Source of the DNA: Candidatus Nomurabacteria bacterium RIFCSPLOWO2_01_FULL_41_12
Lineage (GTDB): Bacteria; Patescibacteriota; Minisyncoccia; Phycocordibacterales; UBA9973
DNA: 40,600 nucleotides
Reading direction: 5' to 3'
Assembly (NCBI GenBank): GCA_001787035.1
Contig: MFUY01000002.1
Location: 7,355 to 47,954 of the forward strand
In this document: piece after piece, positions 22,990-40,600 of the stretch
How positions within the stretch are numbered: position 1 is the first letter of the stretch
Layout of the letters: each line of letters starts with the position of its first letter
The notes under the pieces: generated by a model
What the model was told of the DNA's origin: nothing
The model's input: only the letters and a program-made list of their open reading frames with translations
Databases searched by the model: none
Program-made: the position numbers and the translations under genes

Positions 22990-23661
22990 ATGGAAGCAAA
23001 AATACAAGCAAAAATTTATGACCAAAAAGGTGTCTCGGCGGGGGCAGTATTTCTTCCAGCGAAAGTTTTTGCCGCTAAGTGGAGGAGCGACCTAGTGCAT
23101 CAAGTTGTGGAAGGAATGCGCAGCAATAAGCGCGCAGGCACAGCTGATACTAAGGACAGGGGAGAAGTCCGCGGTGGAGGCAGAAAGCCCTGGAAACAAA
23201 AGGGGACAGGGCGGGCACGTCACGGGTCTTCCAGGAGCCCTATCTGGGTGGGCGGAGGCGTAACCCACGGCCCGCTGGCGGAGAAAAATTATAAAAGAAA
23301 AATCTCAAAAAAAATGCGGGCGCAGGCGCTTTTCTCCGTTTTGTCTAGAAAATTAAAAGACGGGGAGATTATTTTTATAGATTCTCTTGTAATGTCTGGG
23401 ATCAGCACTAAAAACGGAGTAGAAGTGATAAAAAATTTAGCCAAAGCTATAGGAGCCAAAAATATTACAACTGCAAAGAAACCCAAAATGCTCATGGCTC
23501 TGTATGAACGTAATGTTAAAACAGAAAAGAGCTTCAGAAATATATCGGCACTTGAGATAGTTTTTCTAAAAAATCTAAATCCTCTTGATGTATTAAATTA
23601 CCAATACCTTTTAATAGAAAATCCGGTCGAGAGCGTAAAATTTTTAGAATCTCGTGGCTAG
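22990..23661 (+). CDS. rplD: 50S ribosomal protein L4
   Basis: 223 aa. RGGGRKPWKQKGTGRARHGSSRSPIWVGGGVTHGP. Confidence 0.9.
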   Translation: MEAKIQAKIYDQKGVSAGAVFLPAKVFAAKWRSDLVHQVVEGMRSNKRAGTADTKDRGEVRGGGRKPWKQKGTGRARHGSSRSPIWVGGGVTHGPLAEKNYKRKISKKMRAQALFSVLSRKLKDGEIIFIDSLVMSGISTKNGVEVIKNLAKAIGAKNITTAKKPKMLMALYERNVKTEKSFRNISALEIVFLKNLNPLDVLNYQYLLIENPVESVKFLESRG

Positions 23662-23780
23662 TGAAACTTTTTAAAATATGCTTTTTCCGGTACGGATTTT
23701 CCGAAGCTTGAAAAATCCTGAAATTCTCGGCTCGTCAGCCTCGAAACCCCTCCAAAAGCATATTTTAAAAAGTTTCACTA
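23659..23780. repeat. 122-bp element with perfect 27-bp terminal inverted repeats (rplD-rplW spacer)
   Basis: TAGTGAAACTTTTTAAAATATGCTTTT (23659-23685) is the exact reverse complement of 23754-23780. The 68-nt core contains an internal GGATTTT/AAAATCC hairpin. The left arm includes the rplD TAG stop. Confidence 0.8.
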
Positions 23781-23787
23781 AAACAAA

Positions 23788-24057
23788 ATGACAAAAATAA
23801 TTAAAAACCCAAGAGTGACCGAAAAAGCCTCATTTGCGCAAGAGCAAAATGTTTACTCTTTTGATGTTGTTTCAGGGGCGAATAAGACAGAAATAAAAAA
23901 GGCTATTTTTGCGCTCTATAAAGTGCATCCGGTAAAAGTGAATGTTTTACCTATACCAAGGAAAAATATTATGTCCAAAGGACGTTTGGGAGTCAAAGGC
24001 GGAGGCCGAAAGGCGTTGGTGTATTTAAAGGTAGGTGATAAAATAGAATTTATTTAA
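23788..24057 (+). CDS. rplW: 50S ribosomal protein L23
   Basis: 89 aa. PRVTEKASFAQEQNVYSFDV, NKTEIKKAI. Confidence 0.9.
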   Translation: MTKIIKNPRVTEKASFAQEQNVYSFDVVSGANKTEIKKAIFALYKVHPVKVNVLPIPRKNIMSKGRLGVKGGGRKALVYLKVGDKIEFI

Positions 24058-24058
24058 A

Positions 24059-24898
24059 ATGAAAAGCTACAAACCGACAAGTAAATCAAGACGTCAGATG
24101 ACTAATGTATCATACAGGGGTGTTTTGACAGCGACCGCTCCCACTAAGTCTTTGACTTATGGTTTCAAGAGATCAGTAGGGCGTAACAGCCAAGGCAGGA
24201 TTACCATGAGACATAAAGGCGGAGGGCATAAGCGTCTTTTCCGGGATGTTGACTTTGTTTATAATAAAAAAGAAATTCCCGCGAAGATTAAATCTGTGGA
24301 ATACGACCCGAACCGTTCGGCCTTCATTGGCTTAGCTGTCTATAAAGATGGAGAAAAAAGATATGTCGTATTGCCGAAAGGAGTAAAAATGGGGGATTCT
24401 TTTATCGTATCCGAAAAGGCGCCCCTCTCGGCGGGAAATCGTTTGCCACTTCGTAATATTCCGGTTGGAACTTTTGTTTACAATATTGAAATCAAACCTA
24501 GGGGCGGTGCTAAGATCGGTCGCTCAGCGGGAATTTTTGCCCAAGTGGTGGCGAATGCCGACGGATATACGAACATCAAAATGCCTTCAACGGAAATCAG
24601 AAAAATAAATGAAGAGTGTTGGGCCTCTATAGGCGCGGTTTCAAACGAAGAGCATCATCTGGAGAATTACGGTAAAGCGGGGCGTAGCCGTTGGAAAGGA
24701 ATACGCCCGACGGTTCGCGGCACAGCAATGAACCCAGTAGACCATCCATACGGAGGCGGAGAGGGCAGACAAGGGCGCGGAACCAAACGCCCGAAAACAA
24801 TGTGGGGCAAGGTTACCGGCGGGCGCAAAACCCGCGGTCCGAAGAAATACTCAAATGTGTTTATCGTGTCTAGGCGCAAGACTGGGAAGAATAAATAA
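24059..24898 (+). CDS. rplB: 50S ribosomal protein L2
   Basis: 279 aa. RHKGGGHKR, GTAMNPVDHPYGGGEG. Confidence 0.95.
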   Translation: MKSYKPTSKSRRQMTNVSYRGVLTATAPTKSLTYGFKRSVGRNSQGRITMRHKGGGHKRLFRDVDFVYNKKEIPAKIKSVEYDPNRSAFIGLAVYKDGEKRYVVLPKGVKMGDSFIVSEKAPLSAGNRLPLRNIPVGTFVYNIEIKPRGGAKIGRSAGIFAQVVANADGYTNIKMPSTEIRKINEECWASIGAVSNEEHHLENYGKAGRSRWKGIRPTVRGTAMNPVDHPYGGGEGRQGRGTKRPKTMWGKVTGGRKTRGPKKYSNVFIVSRRKTGKNK

Positions 24899-24927
24899 AA
24901 AAATCCTCCACTATGGAGGATTTTTTT
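24899..24927 (+). terminator. strong rho-independent terminator immediately after rplB, inside the S10 cluster
   Basis: AAAAATCCTCCA-CTA-TGGAGGATTTTT (12-bp stem) with a T7 run. The A run upstream makes it potentially bidirectional. Confidence 0.75.
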
Positions 24928-25016
24928 ATTAACAACCATAACTTGCGTTATTTTGTGTAGATTATAGACTTTATAATGGAATCATACATAAACTTTGTTC
25001 TCTCACCCCAGATATT

Positions 25017-25301
25017 TTGGGGTAAATCGTAACGTTGTCGTTTCGGAGGGGGTCAATGCACCACGTGTCAAGGCGTCGTCGTCGCCAGGCGAGGAGAGTT
25101 ATCATCGCCGTGGCTATGTTGTTCATTGTACGTCGGGCGAAGGAGGCCCGTGTTACGCGTCGCAAACGACGCTAGTCTGGTGCATCCACCCTCTAGCTGG
25201 CTCCCCGCCGGCCCCTCAACATCGCTGGCTCCCGCCAGTCCCACCCCGCCCCGGCCTTCGACGCCTGTCGAATGCTGGGGCACTCTTATTTTTACCCCCA
25301 A
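25017..25301. other. GC-rich insert 1 between rplB and rpsS; candidate structured RNA or foreign DNA remnant
   Basis: 151 of 240 nt are G+C in 25021-25260, and 47 of 60 in 25201-25260. The flanking line 24941-25000 has 16 of 60. Complementary segments: 25046-50/25189-93, 25056-62/25179-85, 25134-38/25146-50, 25157-62/25167-72, and possibly 25017-26/25291-301. TATAAT at 24972-24977 lies upstream. Strand undetermined. Confidence 0.5.
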
Positions 25302-25328
25302 CGGCTCAAATACCAGTATTTGAGCCGT
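25301..25328. other. perfect 12-bp hairpin at the right edge of GC-rich insert 1
   Basis: ACGGCTCAAATA-CCAG-TATTTGAGCCGT. No U-tract on either strand. Confidence 0.6.
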
Positions 25329-25342
25329 TCGCTGACTTTCAT

Positions 25343-25370
25343 TTGACATTTTAGCCATATTTGTTAGTAT
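25343..25370 (+). promoter_or_regulatory. near-consensus sigma70-like promoter re-initiating at rpsS
   Basis: TTGACA (25343-25348), 16-nt spacer, TAGTAT (25365-25370). Followed by leader hairpin GGCTC-AATTGA-GAGCC (25379-25394) and GTTTTGTTTG. Confidence 0.55.
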
Positions 25371-25423
25371 GTTTTTAAGGCTCAATTGAGAGCCGTTTTG
25401 TTTGCTTAAGAGAAAACATAAGA

Positions 25424-25771
25424 ATGACAAGATCAATCAAAAAAGGCATATATGTGGATGAAAAACTCTTAAAAAAGATTGAGGGCAAAAACCCGCTTTC
25501 CACTCCGGTCGTCAAGACCTGGAAAAGGGCCTGCGTTATATCCCCAGAGATGCTTGGTTTTACCTTCGGCGTGCATAATGGTAAGACGCACATAGATGTT
25601 TTAGTTACGGAAGACATGGTTGGGCACCGATTGGGAGAATTTTCTCCGACTAAGAAATTTATTAAGCACGGAGGAAAGATGCAGAAAGAGCTTGAGCAAA
25701 AGAAAAAAGAAGCCGAGATAACAGCCGCTAAAGGAGCGACTGCCGCCACAGCTGATGCGAAGAAAACATAA
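25424..25771 (+). CDS. rpsS: 30S ribosomal protein S19 with Lys/Ala-rich C-terminal tail
   Basis: 115 aa. RSIKKGIYVD, GFTFGVHNGKTHIDVLVTEDMVGHRLGEFSPT. Confidence 0.95.
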   Translation: MTRSIKKGIYVDEKLLKKIEGKNPLSTPVVKTWKRACVISPEMLGFTFGVHNGKTHIDVLVTEDMVGHRLGEFSPTKKFIKHGGKMQKELEQKKKEAEITAAKGATAATADAKKT

Positions 25772-25773
25772 TT

Positions 25774-26169
25774 ATGAAAGCATTTTTAAAAAATTACAGA
25801 CAGTCTCCGAGGAAAGTTCGTCTAGTTGCCGGACTGATCAGGGGGAAAAGTGTAGGACAGGCCGTAGCGGAGCTTGATTTTTTAGCGAAGCGCGCCGGAT
25901 TACCGATAAAAAAGCTTTTACTTTCTGCGGTTTCTAATGCGAAACAAAACGGAATAGAAATGGCTAATTTATATATCAAAGAACTGCGAGTAGACAAAGG
26001 CATAACCATGAAAAGGATGATGCCCGCGGCCATGGGTACCGGACACAGGATAAATAAGCGCACCAGCCATCTGAATATCCTTTTAGGAGAAAAAGTTGTT
26101 AAAGTTGCAAAGTCTAATAAAAGAACGGTCTCGAGTTCTAAAAAAAGGACCGTCCCTGAGAAAAAATAA
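25774..26169 (+). CDS. rplV: 50S ribosomal protein L22 with basic C-terminal extension
   Basis: 131 aa. YRQSPRKVRLVAGLIRGKSV, GHRINKRTSH. The tail KSNKRTVSSSKKRTVPEKK is encoded by a Family D composite element. Confidence 0.95.
   Translation: MKAFLKNYRQSPRKVRLVAGLIRGKSVGQAVAELDFLAKRAGLPIKKLLLSAVSNAKQNGIEMANLYIKELRVDKGITMKRMMPAAMGTGHRINKRTSHLNILLGEKVVKVAKSNKRTVSSSKKRTVPEKK
26121..26157. repeat. Family D composite element, copy D3, inside the rplV 3' coding region
   Basis: AAGAACGGTCTC-GAGTTCTAAAAA-AAGGACCGTCCCT. Both arms are read as K-R-T-V. Confidence 0.6.
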
Positions 26170-26170
26170 T

Positions 26171-26896
26171 ATGAGCAAAATAGTCCATCCATATGCGCAT
26201 AGGTTGATAATACTCCGAGACTGGAAGTCCCGCTGGTTTGCCGATCCGAAGAAATACGTTTCTTACCTGAAGGGAGATGTTCTGATACGCCAATATTTAG
26301 AAAAAAAACTGCGCGGAATGTATATTTCCACCATTGAAATCGAAAGAAGCAGAAAAGCAACTCGGTTCATCATCCGAACTTCCCGTCCCGGCCTTATCAT
26401 AGGCAGGAGTGGTGAGGGAGCCACTAAGCTGAAGGCTGATATTTTGAAGAAAATGGATAATTTGAAACTTCCAAGACCGGAAGATTTTAAATTGGAAATT
26501 GTTGAAGTAGGGAATCCGGAAGCTGATGCCGCTATCGTCGCTTATATGATTGCCGAAGGGTTGGAGAAAAGATTGCCTTATCGCCGGGTTATTAAAACGA
26601 TTATTGAAAAAGTCATGACGACACGCGGAGTAGAAGGCGCCAGAGTGGTTCTCTCCGGCCGTCTTGGCGGAGCTGATATTGCCCGCACAGAAGAGCTCAA
26701 GCGGGGCAGTATTCCGCTGCAGAGTTTCCGCGCGGATATAGATTTCAAGCGTGAGCGCGCGACCTTGTCTTACGGCGTGGTCGGGATAAAAGTCTGGATT
26801 TACCGCGGTAAAATTTTTGCTGATAAAAGACCTGCCCGTAGTGGTTTTAGTACATCTGATGCAGGCGGAAGAGAAAATAAGATAAAAACTGATTAA
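26171..26896 (+). CDS. rpsC: 30S ribosomal protein S3
   Basis: 241 aa from the ATG at 26171 (the track start 26096 overlaps rplV). MSKIVHPYAHRL, GRLGGADIARTE. Confidence 0.95.
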   Translation: MSKIVHPYAHRLIILRDWKSRWFADPKKYVSYLKGDVLIRQYLEKKLRGMYISTIEIERSRKATRFIIRTSRPGLIIGRSGEGATKLKADILKKMDNLKLPRPEDFKLEIVEVGNPEADAAIVAYMIAEGLEKRLPYRRVIKTIIEKVMTTRGVEGARVVLSGRLGGADIARTEELKRGSIPLQSFRADIDFKRERATLSYGVVGIKVWIYRGKIFADKRPARSGFSTSDAGGRENKIKTD

Positions 26897-26900
26897 TTTT

Positions 26901-27329
26901 ATGTTAGTACCAAAAAAAGTAAAATTTAGAAAATGGCAAACCAAGCGCACCAATCCAAAGATGGTGTCGCCAGACACCCGGGGTACGAAGTTGTCTTTTG
27001 GTTCCTACGGTCTTAAGTCTGAGACTCAAGCGCGTGTCAAATCAACCCAAATCGAATCCGCCCGCAAGGTAATATCCCGCACTCTCACTAAAGCCGGAAA
27101 ATACTGGATTCGTATTTTCCCCGACCGCCCCTATACTTCCAAACCCCCAGAAATGGGCATGGGAAAAGGGAAAGGCGACCCACAGGGATATTGTTTTGAT
27201 GTTTTTCCGGGACGCATTATTTTTGAAGTGGACGGCGTGGATGAGGCTATTGCCCATGAAGCATTACGAAAAGCGGGCACCAAGCTTCCGCTTAAAGTAA
27301 GAATTATTGGGAGAACTCATAAGCAATAA
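26901..27329 (+). CDS. rplP: 50S ribosomal protein L16
   Basis: 142 aa. MLVPKKVKFRKWQ, MGKGKG. Confidence 0.95.
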   Translation: MLVPKKVKFRKWQTKRTNPKMVSPDTRGTKLSFGSYGLKSETQARVKSTQIESARKVISRTLTKAGKYWIRIFPDRPYTSKPPEMGMGKGKGDPQGYCFDVFPGRIIFEVDGVDEAIAHEALRKAGTKLPLKVRIIGRTHKQ

Positions 27330-27332
27330 TAC

Positions 27333-27345
27333 AAGGACCGTCCTT
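27333..27345. repeat. Family D palindrome, copy D4 (rplP-rpmC spacer)
   Basis: AAGGAC-C-GTCCTT, perfect. Confidence 0.6.
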
Positions 27346-27352
27346 AAAAAAC

Positions 27353-27547
27353 ATGAAAACAAAGAAAGACAATTTAAAAGGAATGAAAAAGGATGAGCTC
27401 AAGAAAAAGCTTGTTGTCCTGGAAGAGAATGTGCGAGTTATTAGATTTAAGGCGGAAGGTTCAAAATCAAAGAATGTAAAAGAGTCGGCAACTTTAAGAA
27501 AAGAAATTGCTCGAATATTAACAGAGATAAATAACAAAAAGAAATGA
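27353..27547 (+). CDS. rpmC: 50S ribosomal protein L29
   Basis: 64 aa. [20 protein letters not shown]. The TGA stop overlaps the rpsQ ATG. Confidence 0.9.
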
Positions 27548-27771
27548 ATAAAGGTAATATCTTAAAAGGAGTGGTTGTTTCGGACAAGATGGATAAGACC
27601 GTGATTGTAACAGTGTCGCGATTTATCAAGCATCCGCTTTACGGCAAATTTTATAAAGTAAATAAGAAATACAAAGCGCATGACCAGGAAAATAAATATA
27701 AAATCGGAGATAAGGTAGAAATAGTTGAAACCAGGCCGATTTCAAAAGACAAAAGATTTAAAGTGGTATAA
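27544..27771 (+). CDS. rpsQ: 30S ribosomal protein S17
   Basis: 75 aa. [45 protein letters not shown]. Confidence 0.95.
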
Positions 27772-27775
27772 TTAT

Positions 27776-27847
27776 ACTTGTCCCGTTGCAAATTCAACGA
27801 ATGGGACATAAAGGATAAAAATTATTAATTAAAATTTGCAACTGGGA
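27776..27847 (+). repeat. Family A leader element, copy A3 (ends in the rplN ATG; classical S10|spc boundary)
   Basis: ACTTGTCCCGTTGCAAATT...AATTTGCAACTGGGA. GTTGCAAATT 27785-27794 pairs perfectly with AATTTGCAAC 27833-27842, and TCCC pairs with GGGA 27844-27847. It carries three compensatory pair changes relative to A2 and A4. Confidence 0.75.
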
Positions 27848-28218
27848 TGATACAAAACGAAAGTTTAGTTAAAATAACAGATAACGCTGGAGGCACCGTG
27901 GGTAAAGTGTTCAAGATTTTAGGCTCTTCAAAAAAAAGATACGCGACTTTGGGCGAATTGGTTATTATTTCTGTGAAAGTAGCTTCTCCACGAAAAGGGG
28001 TAAAGAAGAAAGACGTGCATCAGGCAGTCGTCGTACGCACCAGAAGCGCCTACAGAAGGAAGGATGGATCTTATATTCGTTTTGACGATAATGCTGTAGT
28101 GCTCTTGGAAAAAGGCAAGCTTGACCCGAAAGCCGGGCGCGTCTTCGGTCCGATACCGAGAGAGCTTGCTGAAAAGGGATTTCAAAAAATAATTTCGCTG
28201 GCGCAGGAAGTAATTTAA
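27847..28218 (+). CDS. rplN: 50S ribosomal protein L14
   Basis: 123 aa. MIQNESLVKITDNAGG. Confidence 0.95.
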   Translation: MIQNESLVKITDNAGGTVGKVFKILGSSKKRYATLGELVIISVKVASPRKGVKKKDVHQAVVVRTRSAYRRKDGSYIRFDDNAVVLLEKGKLDPKAGRVFGPIPRELAEKGFQKIISLAQEVI

Positions 28219-28236
28219 AAAAGTTTCTTAAAATAT

Positions 28237-28455
28237 ATGAAATTAAAAAAGGGAGACAACATAATAATCATAACAGGCAAGGATAAAGGTAAAAAAGGCA
28301 AGATTGTCCGTGTTTTGGTGCGAGAGAATAAAGTTATTGTTGAAGGGGCAAATATGAGCAAAAAGCATCAGCGTCCCAGAAAGTCTGGCGAAAAGGGGAG
28401 GATGATAGATATGGCTATGCCGATACACGCTTCAAATGTTAAAAAAGCAGAATAA
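28237..28455 (+). CDS. rplX: 50S ribosomal protein L24 (short form)
   Basis: 72 aa. MKLKKGDNIIIITGKDKGKKGKI KOW motif. Confidence 0.9.
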   Translation: MKLKKGDNIIIITGKDKGKKGKIVRVLVRENKVIVEGANMSKKHQRPRKSGEKGRMIDMAMPIHASNVKKAE

Positions 28456-28464
28456 ATAGTTAAT

Positions 28465-29049
28465 ATGAAACATTTAACCGTAAAAGAAAAAGAAGTGCAA
28501 GCCTTTGAGAAAATGAAAAACTCTACTGTGGCGTTAAGCTCGGAGTTTCATTATAAAAATGCCATGGCTTCGCCGAAGATGGAGAAGATTGTTTTGAACA
28601 CAGGCACTGGGACAGCCATCAAGAAAGATAAAAATAAAAATGATGCTATCGGAGAACGTTTAGCCAAAATTACCGGGCAGAGGCCGGTTCTAAAAGGCGC
28701 CAAGCAGTCCATTGCGTCTTTTAAAGTCCGCCAGGGCGACCCTATCGGCATCGTTGTGACATTGAGGGGCAAGAGGATGTATGCTTTCCTAGAAAAACTT
28801 ATAAATGTCGCCATCCCCCGCACCAAAGATTTCCGTGGTATTGCCCGCACGGCAGTGGATACTATCGGCAACCTCACCATTGGCATCAAAGAACACACTA
28901 TTTTTCCGGAAACAGCTGATGAAGATATCCGCGACGTTTTCGGCATGTCTATTACTCTGGTTTCCACAGCTAAAAATAAAAAAGAAGGTACAGCTTTCTT
29001 TGAACTCCTGGGTGTCCCTTTCAAGAAGGAAGAAGAGAAAAAGAAATAA
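28465..29049 (+). CDS. rplE: 50S ribosomal protein L5
   Basis: 194 aa. PKMEKIVLNTGTG, ITGQRPV, FRGI, GIKEHTIFPE. Confidence 0.95.
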   Translation: MKHLTVKEKEVQAFEKMKNSTVALSSEFHYKNAMASPKMEKIVLNTGTGTAIKKDKNKNDAIGERLAKITGQRPVLKGAKQSIASFKVRQGDPIGIVVTLRGKRMYAFLEKLINVAIPRTKDFRGIARTAVDTIGNLTIGIKEHTIFPETADEDIRDVFGMSITLVSTAKNKKEGTAFFELLGVPFKKEEEKKK

Positions 29050-29121
29050 ACCCGAACACTTATATGTATAACGCAACTTCGTTGCGCACTTTTGGCGCAT
29101 TATGCAAATAAGTGTGTGGGT
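29050..29121 (+). other. long-loop hairpin abutting the rplE stop
   Basis: ACCCGAACACTTAT (29050-29063) pairs with ATAAGTGTGTGGGT (29108-29121), 12 of 14 complementary. Internal CGCAAC-TTC-GTTGCG. The arms resemble the 3766-3794 terminator hairpin. Confidence 0.5.
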
Positions 29122-29194
29122 AAAGTTATCCACAGTTTTTATTGATATATGAATATATAGGTCTACTATTAAGGATGGAGTCTGTACATCAGTG

Positions 29195-29550
29195 TGAGTA
29201 GATTCCCGTGCACTGCCCACGTATCGGCAGAAGAAAGCAAAGAGGATCCTCACATGACGAATCGTCTGGCGCCCAACTGGGCGCAGATCAGCGGCAAGCA
29301 GATCTTCTTCAAGCATCCGTTCGGCGTCGGCAACACCAACAAGGAGGCGCAGGGCGGCACGTAGGCGAAGAAGCCAAGCGCGCCGCGGCATCAGGGGTTT
29401 CATCGCAAGGTGAGTAGGTCTTCGGGACCATGGCTCACTAGGGACGGGAAGGGACGGCGCACACAACATCGTGCTCCTTCCCCCCGTCCTTCTCTATTTC
29501 TACCTTGACTATTCCGCGCTTATTTGCTAGGCTCAAGGGGCCTAGCAATA
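29195..29550 (+). other. GC-rich insert 2 between rplE and rpsN: leader, SD plus 36-codon ORF, and hairpin-rich 3' part
   Basis: 146 of 240 nt are G+C in 29221-29460. Possible promoter TTGATA-16-TACTAT at 29142-29169. Hairpins at 29410-29438, 29441-29489 (GGGACGGGAAGGG / CCTTCCCCCCGTCC, then TTCTCTATTTCT) and 29524-29548 (TTGCTAGGC-TCAAGGG-GCCTAGCAA). 8-nt direct repeat GTGAGTAG at 29194 and 29410. Confidence 0.55.
29254..29364 (+). CDS. candidate 36-aa small protein MTNRLAPNWAQISGKQIFFKHPFGVGNTNKEAQGGT (no family recognised)
   Basis: ATG preceded by AAAGAGGA, whose GGA ends 7 nt upstream. 33 of 36 codons end in G or C, unlike the A/T-ending usage of neighbouring genes. TAG stop at 29362-29364. 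Too short for the ORF track. Confidence 0.4.
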   Translation: MTNRLAPNWAQISGKQIFFKHPFGVGNTNKEAQGGT

Positions 29551-29589
29551 GATCGATCTGTATTTCTCCTTAAGGTCTTTAGTAGTTTT

Positions 29590-29618
29590 TTGAAGAACTT
29601 TAAGAAAAAATATACGAT
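29590..29618 (+). promoter_or_regulatory. possible promoter re-initiating at rpsN
   Basis: TTGAAG (29590-29595), 17-nt spacer, TACGAT (29613-29618). Weak call. Confidence 0.3.
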
Positions 29619-29662
29619 ATCATCTATAAAAATAGGCGATATTTACTAGTTAATTTTTTTTG

Positions 29663-29848
29663 ATGGCAAAAACATCAGTAAAAGCGAGAGCTTCAAAGAA
29701 ACCCAAATTCAGCACCCGGGCCAAGAACCGATGTTTTCGCTGTGGCCGAGGCAATGCTTTTATGAGAGATTTCGGCATTTGCCGTATTTGTTTCAGAGAG
29801 TTGGCAAATGAAGGAATGTTACCGGGTGTTCGTAAATCAAGCTGGTAG
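29663..29848 (+). CDS. rpsN: 30S ribosomal protein S14, zinc-binding type Z
   Basis: 61 aa from the ATG at 29663. CFRCGR...CRICFRE double CxxC, C-terminal LPGVRKSSW. Confidence 0.95.
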
Positions 29849-39942: not shown

Positions 39943-40600
39943 ATGATACCAAAAAATTTTAGGAAAAAATTTCTTACAAGGACGGTCCTTGGGGAAACTT
40001 CTTTAAGGACCGTCCTTAGACTACTTGGACTTTTAGTCTTAGCTTTTTTGGTTTTTTCTCCGGTAGCGGTAGGGGCGGTTTCGGATGTGCAGTTCAGCAT
40101 TCCCTTCTCCAAATTCAATCCCTACCTCTCTAAACTAAAAGATATAAAGAATGAAATAGTTTCCTCTATTACTTCCGCCACCTCCCAAACAGCCAACATC
40201 TTAGACACCTTCACCGACAATCTCCGAGATGCCTGGAGAGCTTATGTTAATCCTCTGCCTCCTCTCCCGACCAAAGTCCCGACCCGGGTCGGGGCCATCA
40301 TCACCGTCTCTGCCCCTCCCCCAGTCATCTCTGACCAGGCTCTACTGAACGCTCTCTCTATTCTCTTCAATAACAAAGAGATAGCTTCCAGATTCAGAGG
40401 CTCTCCTGGATTACCAGGTCCGGAAGGTAAAGAAGGTCCTCCTGGACCCAAGGGAGAGACAGGCTCCTCCCTCGGCCGTAGCCCTATGGGCGAGGCCTCC
40501 GTCACCTACATACCCTCCAATCCTTCCACTAACTTCGGAGGAGCTTCCATCTTCTCTGTTACAGACTTATCTTCCAATAAATTAATCACCGAGACAGCTA
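39943..40600 (+). CDS. secreted/anchored protein with collagen-like G-X-Y repeats, 3'-truncated by the window end
   Basis: ATG at 39943 and open to nt 40600, so it is absent from the ORF track. MIPKNFRKKF..., TM segment LLGLLVLAFLVFSPVAVGAV, and eight G-X-Y triplets GSPGLPGPEGKEGPPGPKGETGSS at 40399-40470. The minus-strand track ORF 40242..40505 is its antisense shadow. Confidence 0.7.
   Translation, partial: MIPKNFRKKFLTRTVLGETSLRTVLRLLGLLVLAFLVFSPVAVGAVSDVQFSIPFSKFNPYLSKLKDIKNEIVSSITSATSQTANILDTFTDNLRDAWRAYVNPLPPLPTKVPTRVGAIITVSAPPPVISDQALLNALSILFNNKEIASRFRGSPGLPGPEGKEGPPGPKGETGSSLGRSPMGEASVTYIPSNPSTNFGGASIFSVTDLSSNKLITETA
39978..40018. repeat. Family D composite element, copy D5, inside the 5' coding region of the collagen-like gene
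   Basis: AAGGACGGTCCTT-GGGGAAACTTCTTT-AAGGACCGTCCTT. The two arms are exact reverse complements and are read as T-R-T-V-L and L-R-T-V-L. Confidence 0.7.

What the first reader, a model, noticed from the sequence alone, without database searches (positions are those of the whole stretch)
24899..25423. GC-rich module splits rplB from rpsS, bracketed by its own terminator and a near-consensus promoter
rplB and rpsS are normally adjacent and co-transcribed in the S10 operon (established). Here they are 525 bp apart.

Seen in sequence, in order:
- A 12-bp-stem, T7-run terminator right after the rplB stop (24899-24927).
- A perfect TATAAT at 24972-24977.
- A block where I count 151 of 240 G+C (25021-25260), with 47 of 60 in 25201-25260. 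The flanking line 24941-25000 has 16 of 60.
- Nested complementary segments: GAGGG 25046-50 with CCCTC 25189-93; ATGCACC 25056-62 with GGTGCAT 25179-85; CGGGC/GCCCG 25134-50; GCGTCG/CGACGC 25157-72.
- A possible closing helix, TTGGGGTAAA 25017-26 with TTTACCCCCAA 25291-301.
- A perfect 12-bp hairpin at 25301-28.
- A TTGACA-16-TAGTAT promoter (25343-70) that restarts transcription for rpsS.

No frame has an SD or the codon skew seen in insert 2. I therefore lean towards a structured RNA gene or a decayed foreign insert with an out-reading promoter. I recognise no Rfam-type signature.
Basis: partly seen in the sequence, partly recalled or inferred. Interest (0 to 1): 0.8.

Follow-up and report, generated by a model that had tools for sequence, protein, structure and literature searches.

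The report
Orphan mini-gene in variable ribosomal-operon gap
The GC-rich block between rplB and rpsS is real and species-specific, and it most likely is a tiny stand-alone gene for a 39-residue arginine-rich peptide sitting at an old, fast-changing break in the ribosomal-protein cluster of Nomurabacteria, not a recognisable structured-RNA gene.

Summary
The block is the most GC-rich 240 nt of the window. It is not an assembly chimera: at least 10 independent assemblies carry the identical 525-bp spacer.

- The rplB|rpsS split is lineage-wide. Nomurabacteria-like relatives have spacers of 59 to 5274 bp.
- The "out-reading" rpsS promoter and its leader hairpin are conserved in about 20 relatives, so they are ancestral and not part of the insert.

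GGAGG at 25045-49 lies 6 nt before ATG 25056. It opens a 39-codon ORF (MHHVSRRRRRQARRVIIAVAMLFIVRRAKEARVTRRKRR).

Sister species carry weakly or non-homologous units of the same build at the same site: a promoter, a strong SD, a tiny basic ORF and a GC hairpin with a TATTTTTA tail. These are enriched over shuffles.

No Rfam family, protein homologue or phage/plasmid match was found. Best reading: an orphan small-protein gene cassette. A non-coding RNA or a decaying remnant is not excluded. Interest is moderate.

The parts
24059..24898 (+). rplB (uL2), last gene of the upstream transcription unit
   Evidence: ORF. Pfam Ribosomal_L2_N/C on the identical gene.
24899..24927 (.). Bidirectional intrinsic terminator after rplB. 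The core stem is TCCTCCA/TGGAGGA, flanked by an A5 run and a T7 run.
   Evidence: The Rfam hits (Phe_leader and similar families) match only this generic terminator.
24943..24977 (+). Candidate promoter of the mini-gene. It has a -35-like TTGCGT (24943-48), TATAGA (24963-68, 14-nt spacer) and a perfect TATAAT (24972-77, 23-nt spacer). The spacing is non-canonical.
   Evidence: TTGCnTTATTTT is shared with the cassette promoters of L093 and L016, which have a 16-nt spacer. One search did not flag it.
25005..25023 (+). 5'UTR hairpin ACCCCAGA/TTTGGGGT
   Evidence: MFE folds.
25045..25053 (+). Shine-Dalgarno GGAGGGGGT, 6 nt upstream of the start codon
25056..25175 (+). Small ORF of 39 codons plus TAG: MHHVSRRRRRQARRVIIAVAMLFIVRRAKEARVTRRKRR. 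It has 16 K/R and 1 E, with an 11-residue hydrophobic core.
   Evidence: No homologue found. No Pfam, NCBIfam or PHROG match.
25178..25194 (+). Anti-SD/anti-start segment (TGGTGCAT..ACCCTCT). It pairs with AGGGGGT at 25047-53 and with ATGCACCA at 25056-63.
   Evidence: P(unpaired) is about 0 for four of the five SD bases (0.52 at 25046) and for the AUG. Not above the shuffled-3'UTR control and not seen in relatives.
25196..25239 (+). C-rich 3'UTR with two similar hairpins, GCTGGC-N5-GCCGGC and GCTGGC-N4-GCCAGT. They look like an internal duplication. ATCGCTGGCTCCC is shared with the L019 terminator arm.
25248..25294 (+). Terminator-like hairpin (25248-81, 8+6 bp) followed by the ACTCT-TATTTTTA tail. 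Relatives' cassettes end with the same syntax, CCCC-N5-TATTTTTA.
   Evidence: It does not satisfy the strict terminator rule, because the U-run starts 5 nt or more after the stem.
25301..25328 (.). Perfect palindrome ACGGCTCAAATAC-CA-GTATTTGAGCCGT, with no U-run on either side. Function unknown. Its arms resemble the rpsS leader hairpin.
   Evidence: Absent from relatives.
25343..25370 (+). rpsS promoter TTGACA-16-TAGTAT with TG upstream of the -10. It is ancestral and not part of the insert.
   Evidence: Conserved in about 20 relatives.
25379..25404 (+). rpsS leader hairpin GGCTCAATTGAGAGCC plus a U-rich run. It is conserved at sequence level in relatives as AAGCTCG-N4-CGAGCTTTTT.
   Evidence: RNAalifold gave no consensus structure.
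25424..25771 (+). rpsS (uS19), first gene of the downstream unit

Best explanation
**Setting.** In the Nomurabacteria-like clade the ribosomal-protein cluster is cut into separate transcription units. rplB ends with a terminator, and rpsS has its own conserved promoter and leader. The DNA between them is a permissive, rapidly turning-over slot.

**What this genome holds.** In Candidatus Nomurabacteria bacterium RIFCSPLOWO2_01_FULL_41_12 the slot holds one roughly 330-bp unit built like a stand-alone mini-gene:
- a -10 box (24972-77)
- a structured 5'UTR
- a strong SD (25045-53) and ATG (25056)
- a 39-codon ORF for a very basic Arg-rich peptide with a short hydrophobic core
- a C-rich structured 3'UTR
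- a terminator-like hairpin with a U-rich tail (25248-94)

**Inferred mechanism.**
- The unit is transcribed on its own as an mRNA of about 310 nt.
- Once the 3'UTR is made, 25178-94 pairs with the SD and AUG. Ribosomes would then load mainly during transcription, or after the RNA is remodelled, which would keep output of a potentially harmful polycationic peptide low.
- The peptide most likely acts by binding RNA or ribosomes, less likely membranes.
- Transcription of rpsS onward restarts at the ancestral promoter, independently of the unit.

**Shown versus inferred.** Shown: the anatomy, the lineage-wide split, promoter conservation, the same build in sister species, and the lack of homologues. 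Inferred: transcription, translation, the regulatory role of the SD pairing, and the peptide's function.
For: - **Not an artefact.** The identical 525-bp spacer is present in at least 10 independent ENA, JGI and Logan assemblies.
- **Source genome.** It is named.
- **Lineage-wide split with variable content.**
- **Conservation.** Only the rpsS promoter and leader are conserved.
- **SD and ORF.** GGAGG-6 nt-ATG and the 39-codon ORF.
- **Same build in relatives.** Relatives L013-L016, L019, L024, L092, L093 and L099 carry, at the same site and in the same orientation, one to three units. Each has a promoter-like box, GGAGG/AAGGAGG, a 19-101-codon ORF (most of them basic), a GC hairpin and a TATTTTTA tail.
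- **Enrichment.** In 19 spacers there are 20 SD-led sense ORFs, 10 of them strongly basic. Dinucleotide shuffles give 5.9±2.4 and 1.06±1.0 (maxima 16 and 6 in 300 shuffles). The antisense strand gives 10 and 3.
- **Codon-position GC.** Pooled over the relatives' ORFs it is 0.56/0.46/0.65, a coding-like pattern. GC3 is above that of host genes, which show 0.51/0.37/0.44.
- **Marginal orthology with L093, L019 and L014.** Core alignment z-scores are 3.3, 5.4 and 2.7. Shared motifs are TTGCnTTATTTT, GGGGGT..ATG.CACCAC (M-x-H-H), an in-frame AAGGAGGCC (A/T-K-E-A) and a TCCCACCCCG..GGCCT.CGA terminator.
- **SD/AUG pairing.** The SD and AUG pair with the post-stop segment in the MFE and ensemble folds.
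- **A second unit in this genome.** A unit of the same build lies at the rplE|rpsN junction. Its ORF has GC3 of 0.92.
Against: - The window's own ORF shows no codon-position GC periodicity (0.62/0.53/0.62).
- It has no homologue among 5.8 billion or 1.84 billion proteins.
- An SD-led basic ORF in one 525-bp GC-rich spacer is only mildly unlikely by chance: about 0.07 expected, scaled.
- The promoter lacks a correctly spaced -35 and was not flagged. Compared with L016 and L093, the ancestral spacer appears shortened by 2-3 nt. The unit may therefore be transcriptionally weakened.
- The terminator's U-run is set off from the stem and fails the strict rule.
- The SD-3'UTR pairing is not above a shuffled-3'UTR control, since any C-rich tail pairs with a G-rich SD. 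It is also absent in relatives.
- All available copies are identical, so neither purifying selection on the ORF nor covariation can be measured.
- No expression data are available.
Confidence: 0.5

Rival explanations
1. It is a non-coding structured RNA (sRNA) gene. The GC-rich hairpins are the functional product and the 39-codon ORF is incidental.
For: - The fold is strongly more stable than shuffles (z = -6.1).
- It is the most GC-rich block in a 41% GC window, which is the classic signature used to find structured RNAs in AT-rich genomes.
- The ORF has no codon periodicity.
- Its own -10 box and a terminator-like end bracket about 310 nt.
Against: - No Rfam family matches at permissive thresholds in the window or at gathering thresholds in 10 relatives' loci.
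- No homologue of the block exists in 160 related loci, so there is no conservation or covariation.
- Much of the z-score comes from generic terminator-type hairpins.
- A canonical SD-ATG lies at the right distance, and the same SD-ORF build recurs in sister species.
Confidence: 0.2
2. It is non-functional. It is a decaying remnant of a once-functional cassette, or of captured foreign or duplicated DNA, tolerated in a permissive gap between a terminator and a promoter.
For: - The slot turns over very fast. Sister species with 85-91% identical RplB share almost nothing there.
- The promoter spacing looks damaged relative to L016 and L093.
- The 3'UTR contains an internal duplication of a terminator arm.
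- The ORF is shorter than the putative L093 and L014 counterparts (39 versus 54 codons) and lacks their GC3 bias.
- It is an orphan in every frame tested.
Against: - An intact SD, ATG, open frame and terminator-like end are all retained together.
- The sequence is identical in 13 contigs from different samples and years.
- The enrichment of SD-led basic ORFs across the clade argues that units of this type are maintained, not random debris.
Confidence: 0.2
3. It is a type I toxin-antitoxin-like module. A small toxic peptide is encoded by an mRNA kept translationally silent by a 5'-3' long-distance pairing that hides the SD.
For: - The SD and AUG are sequestered by the segment just after the stop codon, as in the hok or aapA1 mRNAs (from my own knowledge).
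- The ORF is small and has a hydrophobic stretch flanked by arginines.
- The module stands alone between terminators.
Against: - The hydrophobic stretch is only 11 residues, too short for a membrane span.
- No antisense promoter was found in the block.
- The pairing is not above the shuffled control and is absent in the relatives' units.
- The relatives' peptides have no hydrophobic core at all.
- There are no paralogues in the window and no Pfam, NCBIfam or PHROG match. PADLOC was not searched.
Confidence: 0.05
4. It is an assembly chimera, or a fragment of a protein-coding gene from a high-GC organism.
For: - The GC jump is sharp.
- Three contigs (L001, L007, L011) end inside the block.
- Long open frames exist on both strands.
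Against: - The junctions are identical in at least 10 independent assemblies made with different assemblers and from different samples.
- The three longest frames (96 aa antisense, 119 aa sense, 46 aa sense) have no homologue other than the identical sequence itself.
- There is no high-GC3 frame.
- There is no phage or plasmid DNA match.
- There is no remnant of the DgkA-like gene found at this site in other relatives.
Confidence: 0.02

Closest known systems
Lineage-specific small-protein genes (sORFs) with their own promoter and terminator in bacterial intergenic regions
   Same: Stand-alone unit with a promoter box, strong SD, an ORF under 50 codons and a terminator hairpin. It was missed by gene callers, which instead called a 96-aa antisense ORF.
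   Different: It sits inside the ribosomal-protein cluster at a clade-wide operon break. It is much more GC-rich than the host. Its counterparts in sister species are almost unrecognisable in sequence.
Very small, highly basic ribosome-associated proteins (bL34, bL36, bS21, bS22, bTHX, eL41)
   Same: Size of 20-55 aa, extreme Arg/Lys content, and a location among ribosomal-protein genes. The resemblance is from my own knowledge of those proteins.
   Different: No sequence match to any Pfam or NCBIfam model. True ribosomal proteins are conserved, whereas these change completely between species with 85-91% identical RplB. The window's peptide also has a hydrophobic core.
Type I toxin mRNAs with SD sequestration by a 5'-3' long-distance interaction (hok/sok, aapA1/IsoA1)
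   Same: Predicted pairing of the SD and AUG with a segment directly downstream of the stop codon. The ORF is small.
   Different: No transmembrane-length hydrophobic segment, no antisense RNA promoter, no paralogues, and the pairing is not conserved in relatives.
GC-rich intergenic islands that mark structured non-coding RNAs in AT-rich genomes
   Same: A long intergenic region that is more GC-rich than its surroundings and folds well.
   Different: No Rfam match and no homologues to support a conserved structure. It contains an SD-led ORF.

Membership tests
Any Rfam 15 RNA family | Covariance-model score at or above the family's gathering threshold | tested here: not met
   In one search (E up to 10) the best hit is Phe_leader at 31.6 bits against a threshold of 55, and it matches only the rplB terminator. 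One search finds only a tRNA-His in the whole window. One search finds nothing in 10 relatives' loci.
Conserved structured RNA gene (generic) | Homologues in related genomes with helices kept through compensatory changes | tested here: not met
   No blastn hit of 24929-25340 in 160 related loci. All 13 known copies are identical. Only marginal similarity to L093 and L019. No covariation can be measured.
Protein-coding small ORF | SD at 5-10 nt from a start codon, and an open frame | tested here: met
   GGAGG at 25045-49, ATG at 25056, 39 codons to TAG at 25173-75.
Protein-coding small ORF | Evidence of selection on the reading frame, from homologues, periodicity or dN/dS | tested here: inconclusive
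   - The window ORF has no periodicity and no homologues.
- The class as a whole is enriched over shuffles and shows pooled coding-like GC1/2/3.
- M-x-H-H and K-E-A are in frame in three cassettes, but BLASTP gives E = 0.078.
Intrinsic (rho-independent) terminator, after rplB | GC-containing stem-loop immediately followed by a U-run | tested here: met
   24899-24927, with a T7 run.
Intrinsic terminator, at the end of the mini-gene | U-run starting within 0-2 nt of the stem | tested here: not met
   The stem is 25248-81 and the TATTTTTA tail is 25287-94, five nt away. One search did not flag it. The same offset syntax recurs in relatives, so some 3'-end function is still plausible.
Sigma-70-type promoter (rpsS) | -35 and -10 hexamers with a 16-18 nt spacer, conserved in relatives | tested here: met
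   TTGACA-16-TAGTAT matches 10 of 12 positions and has TG upstream of the -10. It aligns in about 20 relatives.
Sigma-70-type promoter (mini-gene) | -35 and -10 hexamers with a 16-18 nt spacer | tested here: not met
   TATAAT is perfect, but the nearest -35-like hexamers are 23 or 12 nt away. One search reported nothing there.
Type I toxin-antitoxin | Hydrophobic peptide long enough to span a membrane (about 18-20 residues) | tested here: not met
   The hydrophobic run VIIAVAMLFIV is 11 residues.
Type I toxin-antitoxin | Overlapping or adjacent antisense RNA gene | tested here: not met
   No - strand promoter-like site in 24899-25423. Expression was not testable.
Amino-acid attenuation leader peptide | Run of regulatory codons followed by alternative terminator and antiterminator structures that control the downstream genes without an intervening promoter | tested here: not met
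   Five consecutive Arg codons are present, but rpsS has its own conserved promoter downstream of the hairpins. The Phe_leader hit is only the rplB terminator.
Known small ribosomal proteins | Match to the Pfam or NCBIfam model of the family | tested here: not met
   No match for the window peptide or for 9 relatives' peptides.
Integron-type gene cassette | attC recombination site and a nearby integron integrase | not tested
   A recurring hairpin with a 'CCCC-N5-TATTTTTA' tail ends many units. No integrase was looked for, and no recombination junctions could be examined.

The most novel reading that the evidence does not exclude
The junctions of the ribosomal-protein cluster in Nomurabacteria (rplB|rpsS and rplE|rpsN) are dedicated slots for a rapidly diversifying class of self-contained cassettes. 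Each cassette has a promoter, a strong SD, an Arg/Lys-rich micro-ORF and a characteristic hairpin with a TATTTTTA end. Their products would be clade-specific accessory peptides. They could bind the reduced CPR ribosome or rRNA, or they could be polycationic effectors used against hosts or competitors. Either way they would turn over by duplication, recombination and possibly capture of higher-GC DNA.
Probability: 0.15. Interest if true: 0.7.

Novelty: new variant of a known kind. Interest (0 to 1): 0.4.

Why it matters
**If the mini-gene reading is right.** Automated annotation of CPR genomes would be missing a class of tiny, very basic proteins. They are encoded in the most highly expressed part of the genome and change completely between sister species. 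That bears on two questions: how these reduced-genome episymbionts tune or decorate their ribosomes, and how new genes arise in minimal genomes.

**Correction to a tempting inference.** A 525-bp gap between rplB and rpsS is not an "insertion into the S10 operon" in this lineage. The operon was already split, and rpsS has a conserved promoter and leader.

**If the block is only debris.** The finding is then ordinary: a permissive gap between a terminator and a promoter.

Tried and rejected
- **Rfam.** Searched at permissive E-values on 24700-25600 and at gathering scores on the whole window and on 10 relatives. Only generic terminator look-alikes appeared.
- **ARAGORN for tmRNA and tRNA.** Only tRNA-His at 209-280.
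- **Protein homology.** The antisense 96-aa ORF returned only itself. The sense 46-aa and 39-aa peptides returned nothing (1.84 billion representatives). The sense 119-aa frame returned nothing. One search failed because the query was under 40 aa.
- **Protein family libraries.** Pfam, NCBIfam and PHROGs on the window peptide and on relatives' peptides gave nothing.
- **Mobile-element DNA.** blastn against phages and plasmids gave no match.
- **Repeats inside the window.** Insert 1 against insert 2 and against the rest of the window gave only self-palindromes.
- **Relic of a DgkA-like gene.** Such a gene occupies this site in other relatives, but tblastn found nothing here.
- **Fragment of a high-GC gene.** No frame has high GC3.
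- **SD sequestration as a shared mechanism.** It is absent in relatives and not above the shuffled control.
- **Covariation of the rpsS leader hairpin.** RNAalifold gave no consensus structure on the MAFFT alignment.
- **Closer relatives carrying the same block.** The closest species found (RpsS 84-92%, RplB 87-91%) already have different content.
- **Literature.** Two full-text searches found nothing on such cassettes in CPR.
Full report
**1.

- rplB ends at 24898 and rpsS starts at 25424, so the gap is 525 bp.
- The most GC-rich 240-nt stretch of the 40.6-kb window starts at 25044. All windows with at least 151/240 G+C lie in this block. The window mean is 41%.
- The region folds more stably than dinucleotide shuffles: z = -6.1 on the + strand and -4.1 on the - strand.

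**2. It is not an assembly artefact**

- Exact-protein look-ups with RplB and RpsS returned contigs from independent ENA (megahit), JGI and Logan assemblies of different samples.
- Ten contigs span, or partly span, the spacer. All are 100% identical to the window over the stretches they cover.
- The antisense 96-aa ORF that gene callers place on the block exists as a single sequence on 13 contigs. NCBI names it a hypothetical protein of Candidatus Nomurabacteria bacterium RIFCSPLOWO2_01_FULL_41_12.
- The price of this identity is that there is no variation from which to measure covariation or selection.

**3. The split is old and clade-wide**

- I collected 80 GTDB species representatives and 80 metagenome loci with relatives of RplB and RpsS.
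- In Nomurabacteria-like genomes (RplB about 65-91% identical) the rplB-rpsS spacer ranges from 59 to 5274 bp.
- In more distant Parcubacteria and in non-CPR bacteria it is the usual 2-40 bp.
- Larger spacers hold assorted genes, often including a DgkA-like membrane protein just upstream of rpsS.
- All-against-all blastn of the spacers shows that only the last 60-100 bp before rpsS are shared. That stretch is the TTGAC(A/T)-N16-17-TAnTAT promoter with a TG-extended -10, followed by a short hairpin and U-run (AAGCTCG-N4-CGAGCTTTTT).
- The window's TTGACA-16-TAGTAT (25343-70) and GGCTCAATTGAGAGCC hairpin (25379-94) are this ancestral rpsS promoter and leader. They are not an "out-reading promoter" brought in by an insert.

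**4. The GC-rich core is unique to this species**

- blastn of 24929-25340 against all 160 related loci gave no hit at E ≤ 1. There were no phage or plasmid matches.
- Rfam gave nothing beyond generic terminator look-alikes at the rplB terminator.
- The three longest frames have no homologue: antisense 96 aa, sense 119 aa and sense 46 aa. The 39-aa peptide has none among 1.84 billion cluster representatives.
- No frame has the high GC3 expected of a fragment of a high-GC gene. There is no relic of the DgkA-like gene.

**5. The block contains an SD-led small ORF**

GGAGG at 25045-49 (extended as GGAGGGGGT) lies 6 nt before ATG 25056.
- The ORF runs for 39 codons to TAG at 25173-75 and encodes MHHVSRRRRRQARRVIIAVAMLFIVRRAKEARVTRRKRR. 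It has 16 K/R and one acidic residue, with an 11-residue hydrophobic core.
In the MFE and ensemble folds of 24985-25295, AGGGGGT (25047-53) and ATGCACCA (25056-63) pair with TGGTGCAT..ACCCTCT (25178-94), directly after the stop codon. Most of the SD (four of its five bases) and the whole AUG are predicted to be paired.
- Downstream of that segment come:
  - two similar C-rich hairpins (25196-25239)
  - a 14-bp interrupted hairpin (25248-81) followed by ACTCT-TATTTTTA
  - a perfect palindrome (25301-28)
  - the rpsS promoter
- The proposed "closing helix" 25017-26/25291-301 is not in the MFE fold. Its 3' arm overlaps the probable transcript end.

**6. Sister species carry units of the same build at the same site**

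- Reading the spacers of the closest relatives shows one to three + strand units each. The relatives are L013-L016, L019, L024, L092, L093 and L099, with RplB 85-91% identical.
- Each unit consists of a promoter-like box, GGAGG/AAGGAGG, a 19-101-codon ORF (most of them very basic), a GC-rich hairpin and a "CCCC-N5-TATTTTTA" tail. Example peptides are MSRQKLRKLRRDSLRKPVRR, MRFRLGRRRRRREGRRGCY and MGHHYTPAERAELRRKAENEKALRAKKRMGKKK.
- Across 19 spacers (8.2 kb) there are 20 SD-led sense ORFs of at least 19 codons, and 10 of them have net charge of at least +0.15 per residue.
  - Dinucleotide shuffles give 5.9±2.4 and 1.06±1.0, with maxima of 16 and 6 in 300 shuffles.
  - The antisense strand gives 10 and 3.
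- Pooled GC by codon position in these ORFs is 0.56/0.46/0.65. Host genes in the window show 0.51/0.37/0.44. The pattern is coding-like with raised GC3, which reaches 0.85 in L093.
- The window's unit is weakly similar to those of L093, L019 and L014, with core alignment z-scores of 3.3, 5.4 and 2.7. Shared pieces are:
  - TTGCnTTATTTT
  - GGGGGT..ATG.CACCAC (M-x-H-H)
  - an in-frame AAGGAGGCC (A/T-K-E-A)
  - a TCCCACCCCG..GGCCT.CGA terminator arm
- At protein level this similarity is not significant (E = 0.078).
- A second unit of the same build lies in this window at the rplE|rpsN junction (29050-29662). It has its own promoter, an SD and a 36-codon ORF with GC3 of 0.92. A conserved rpsN promoter and leader follow it.

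**7. Caveats on the mini-gene reading for this particular block**

- The window's ORF has no GC periodicity (0.62/0.53/0.62).
- Taken alone, an SD-led basic ORF in a 525-bp GC-rich spacer has an expected chance count of about 0.07, scaled.
- The perfect TATAAT has no properly spaced -35, and the scan did not flag a promoter. Relative to L016 and L093, the TTGCnT-N16-TATAAT arrangement seems shortened here.
- The terminator's U-run is offset from the stem.
- The SD-3'UTR pairing is not above a shuffled-3'UTR control (0.62 versus 0.49±0.12). It is also absent in the relatives' units. It may therefore be a by-product of a C-rich tail next to a G-rich SD.
- A non-coding RNA and a decaying cassette both remain credible.

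**8. Verdict**

- The block is real, species-specific and strongly folding.
- It is best read as an orphan small-protein gene cassette in a clade-wide, fast-evolving slot between two ribosomal-protein transcription units (confidence about 0.5).
- The rivals are a non-coding RNA (0.2), non-functional debris (0.2), a type I toxin-like module (0.05) and a chimera or gene fragment (0.02).
- It belongs to no known RNA or protein family.
- The interest lies less in this block than in the pattern across the clade: operon junctions populated by GC-rich, SD-led micro-ORFs for polycationic peptides that turn over between sister species.

Noticed in passing
window 29050-29662: A second GC-rich intergenic unit lies between rplE and rpsN and has the same build as the finding. 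It has a TTGATA-16-TACTAT promoter, an SD (AAGAGGA), a 36-codon ORF at 29255-29365 (MTNRLAPNWAQISGKQIFFKHPFGVGNTNKEAQGGT, GC3 0.92), GC hairpins and a 'CTCTATTTCTACC' tail. A TTGACT-17-TAGGCT promoter for rpsN follows. In relatives this junction is also variable, at 156-1238 bp.
   Followed up: partly
window 25343-25404, and L012-L036 and L092-L099 upstream of rpsS: The rpsS promoter and a short hairpin with a U-run that starts a few nt after the -10 are conserved in about 20 Nomurabacteria-like genomes. The hairpin could be a 5' stabiliser, an attenuator or a protein-binding leader. RNAalifold found no consensus structure on the automatic alignment.
   Followed up: partly
window about 29506-29662, and the L013-L016 rplE-rpsN spacers: A leader of about 120 nt between the rpsN promoter and the rpsN start shares conserved blocks across relatives (GGAATAGGT..GATCTGTnTTTCTCCTTAAGG...CTTTAAGAAAA..ACGATATCA.CTATAAA). 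It may be an unrecognised ribosomal-protein leader.
   Followed up: no
L003 (ena:ERZ4903137:k141_261649), matching window 23188-29771: This is a hybrid contig. It is only 72-75% identical to the window upstream of rplB and carries 143 mismatches between 24066 and 24580. After that it is identical except for one base. The cause is either recombination or an assembly join inside rplB between two co-occurring species.
   Followed up: partly
window 25231-25252, - strand: The only canonical G-quadruplex motif (four runs of three or more G, with loops of 1-7 nt) on either strand of the whole 40.6-kb window is GGGGCGGGGTGGGACTGGCGGG. It lies on the template strand inside the GC-rich block.
   Followed up: no
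L030, L034, L036, L039-L042, L054 and L095, just upstream of rpsS: A DgkA-like membrane-protein gene of about 130 aa (...NTAIEIDIDLTSP.YHPYARDTKDVAAGAVL...) sits immediately upstream of rpsS in many relatives. It may be the older occupant of this junction.
   Followed up: partly
L097 100-245: A palindromic, MITE-like element has terminal inverted repeats (CCCGTAGTGAATTTTAGCGA...TCGCTAAAATCTACTACGGG). It is flanked by a duplicated GGTTTGAC at the rpsS -35 region.
   Followed up: no
L015 6840-7873 and L092 1-668: L015 carries three tandem cassettes. Cassettes 1 and 3, and the L092 cassette, share a promoter block of about 45 nt (CACACCCAGAnCTTGCTTTATATATATATTTCTTTTAA) and the 'CCCCCATCACTATTTTTA' tail. 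Their ORFs are unrelated, which suggests constant ends with variable payload.
   Followed up: partly
L001, L007 and L011 (contig ends at window about 25252, 25168 and 25308): Three independent contigs stop inside the GC-rich block. Possible causes are a coverage drop at high-GC hairpins or strain-level heterogeneity at this locus.
   Followed up: no
window 39944-40600: An ORF running off the end of the window starts with a hydrophobic N-terminus and contains a collagen-like G-x-y run (GSPGLPGPEGKEGPPGPKGETG). This accounts for the GC-rich patch at 40200-40550.
   Followed up: no
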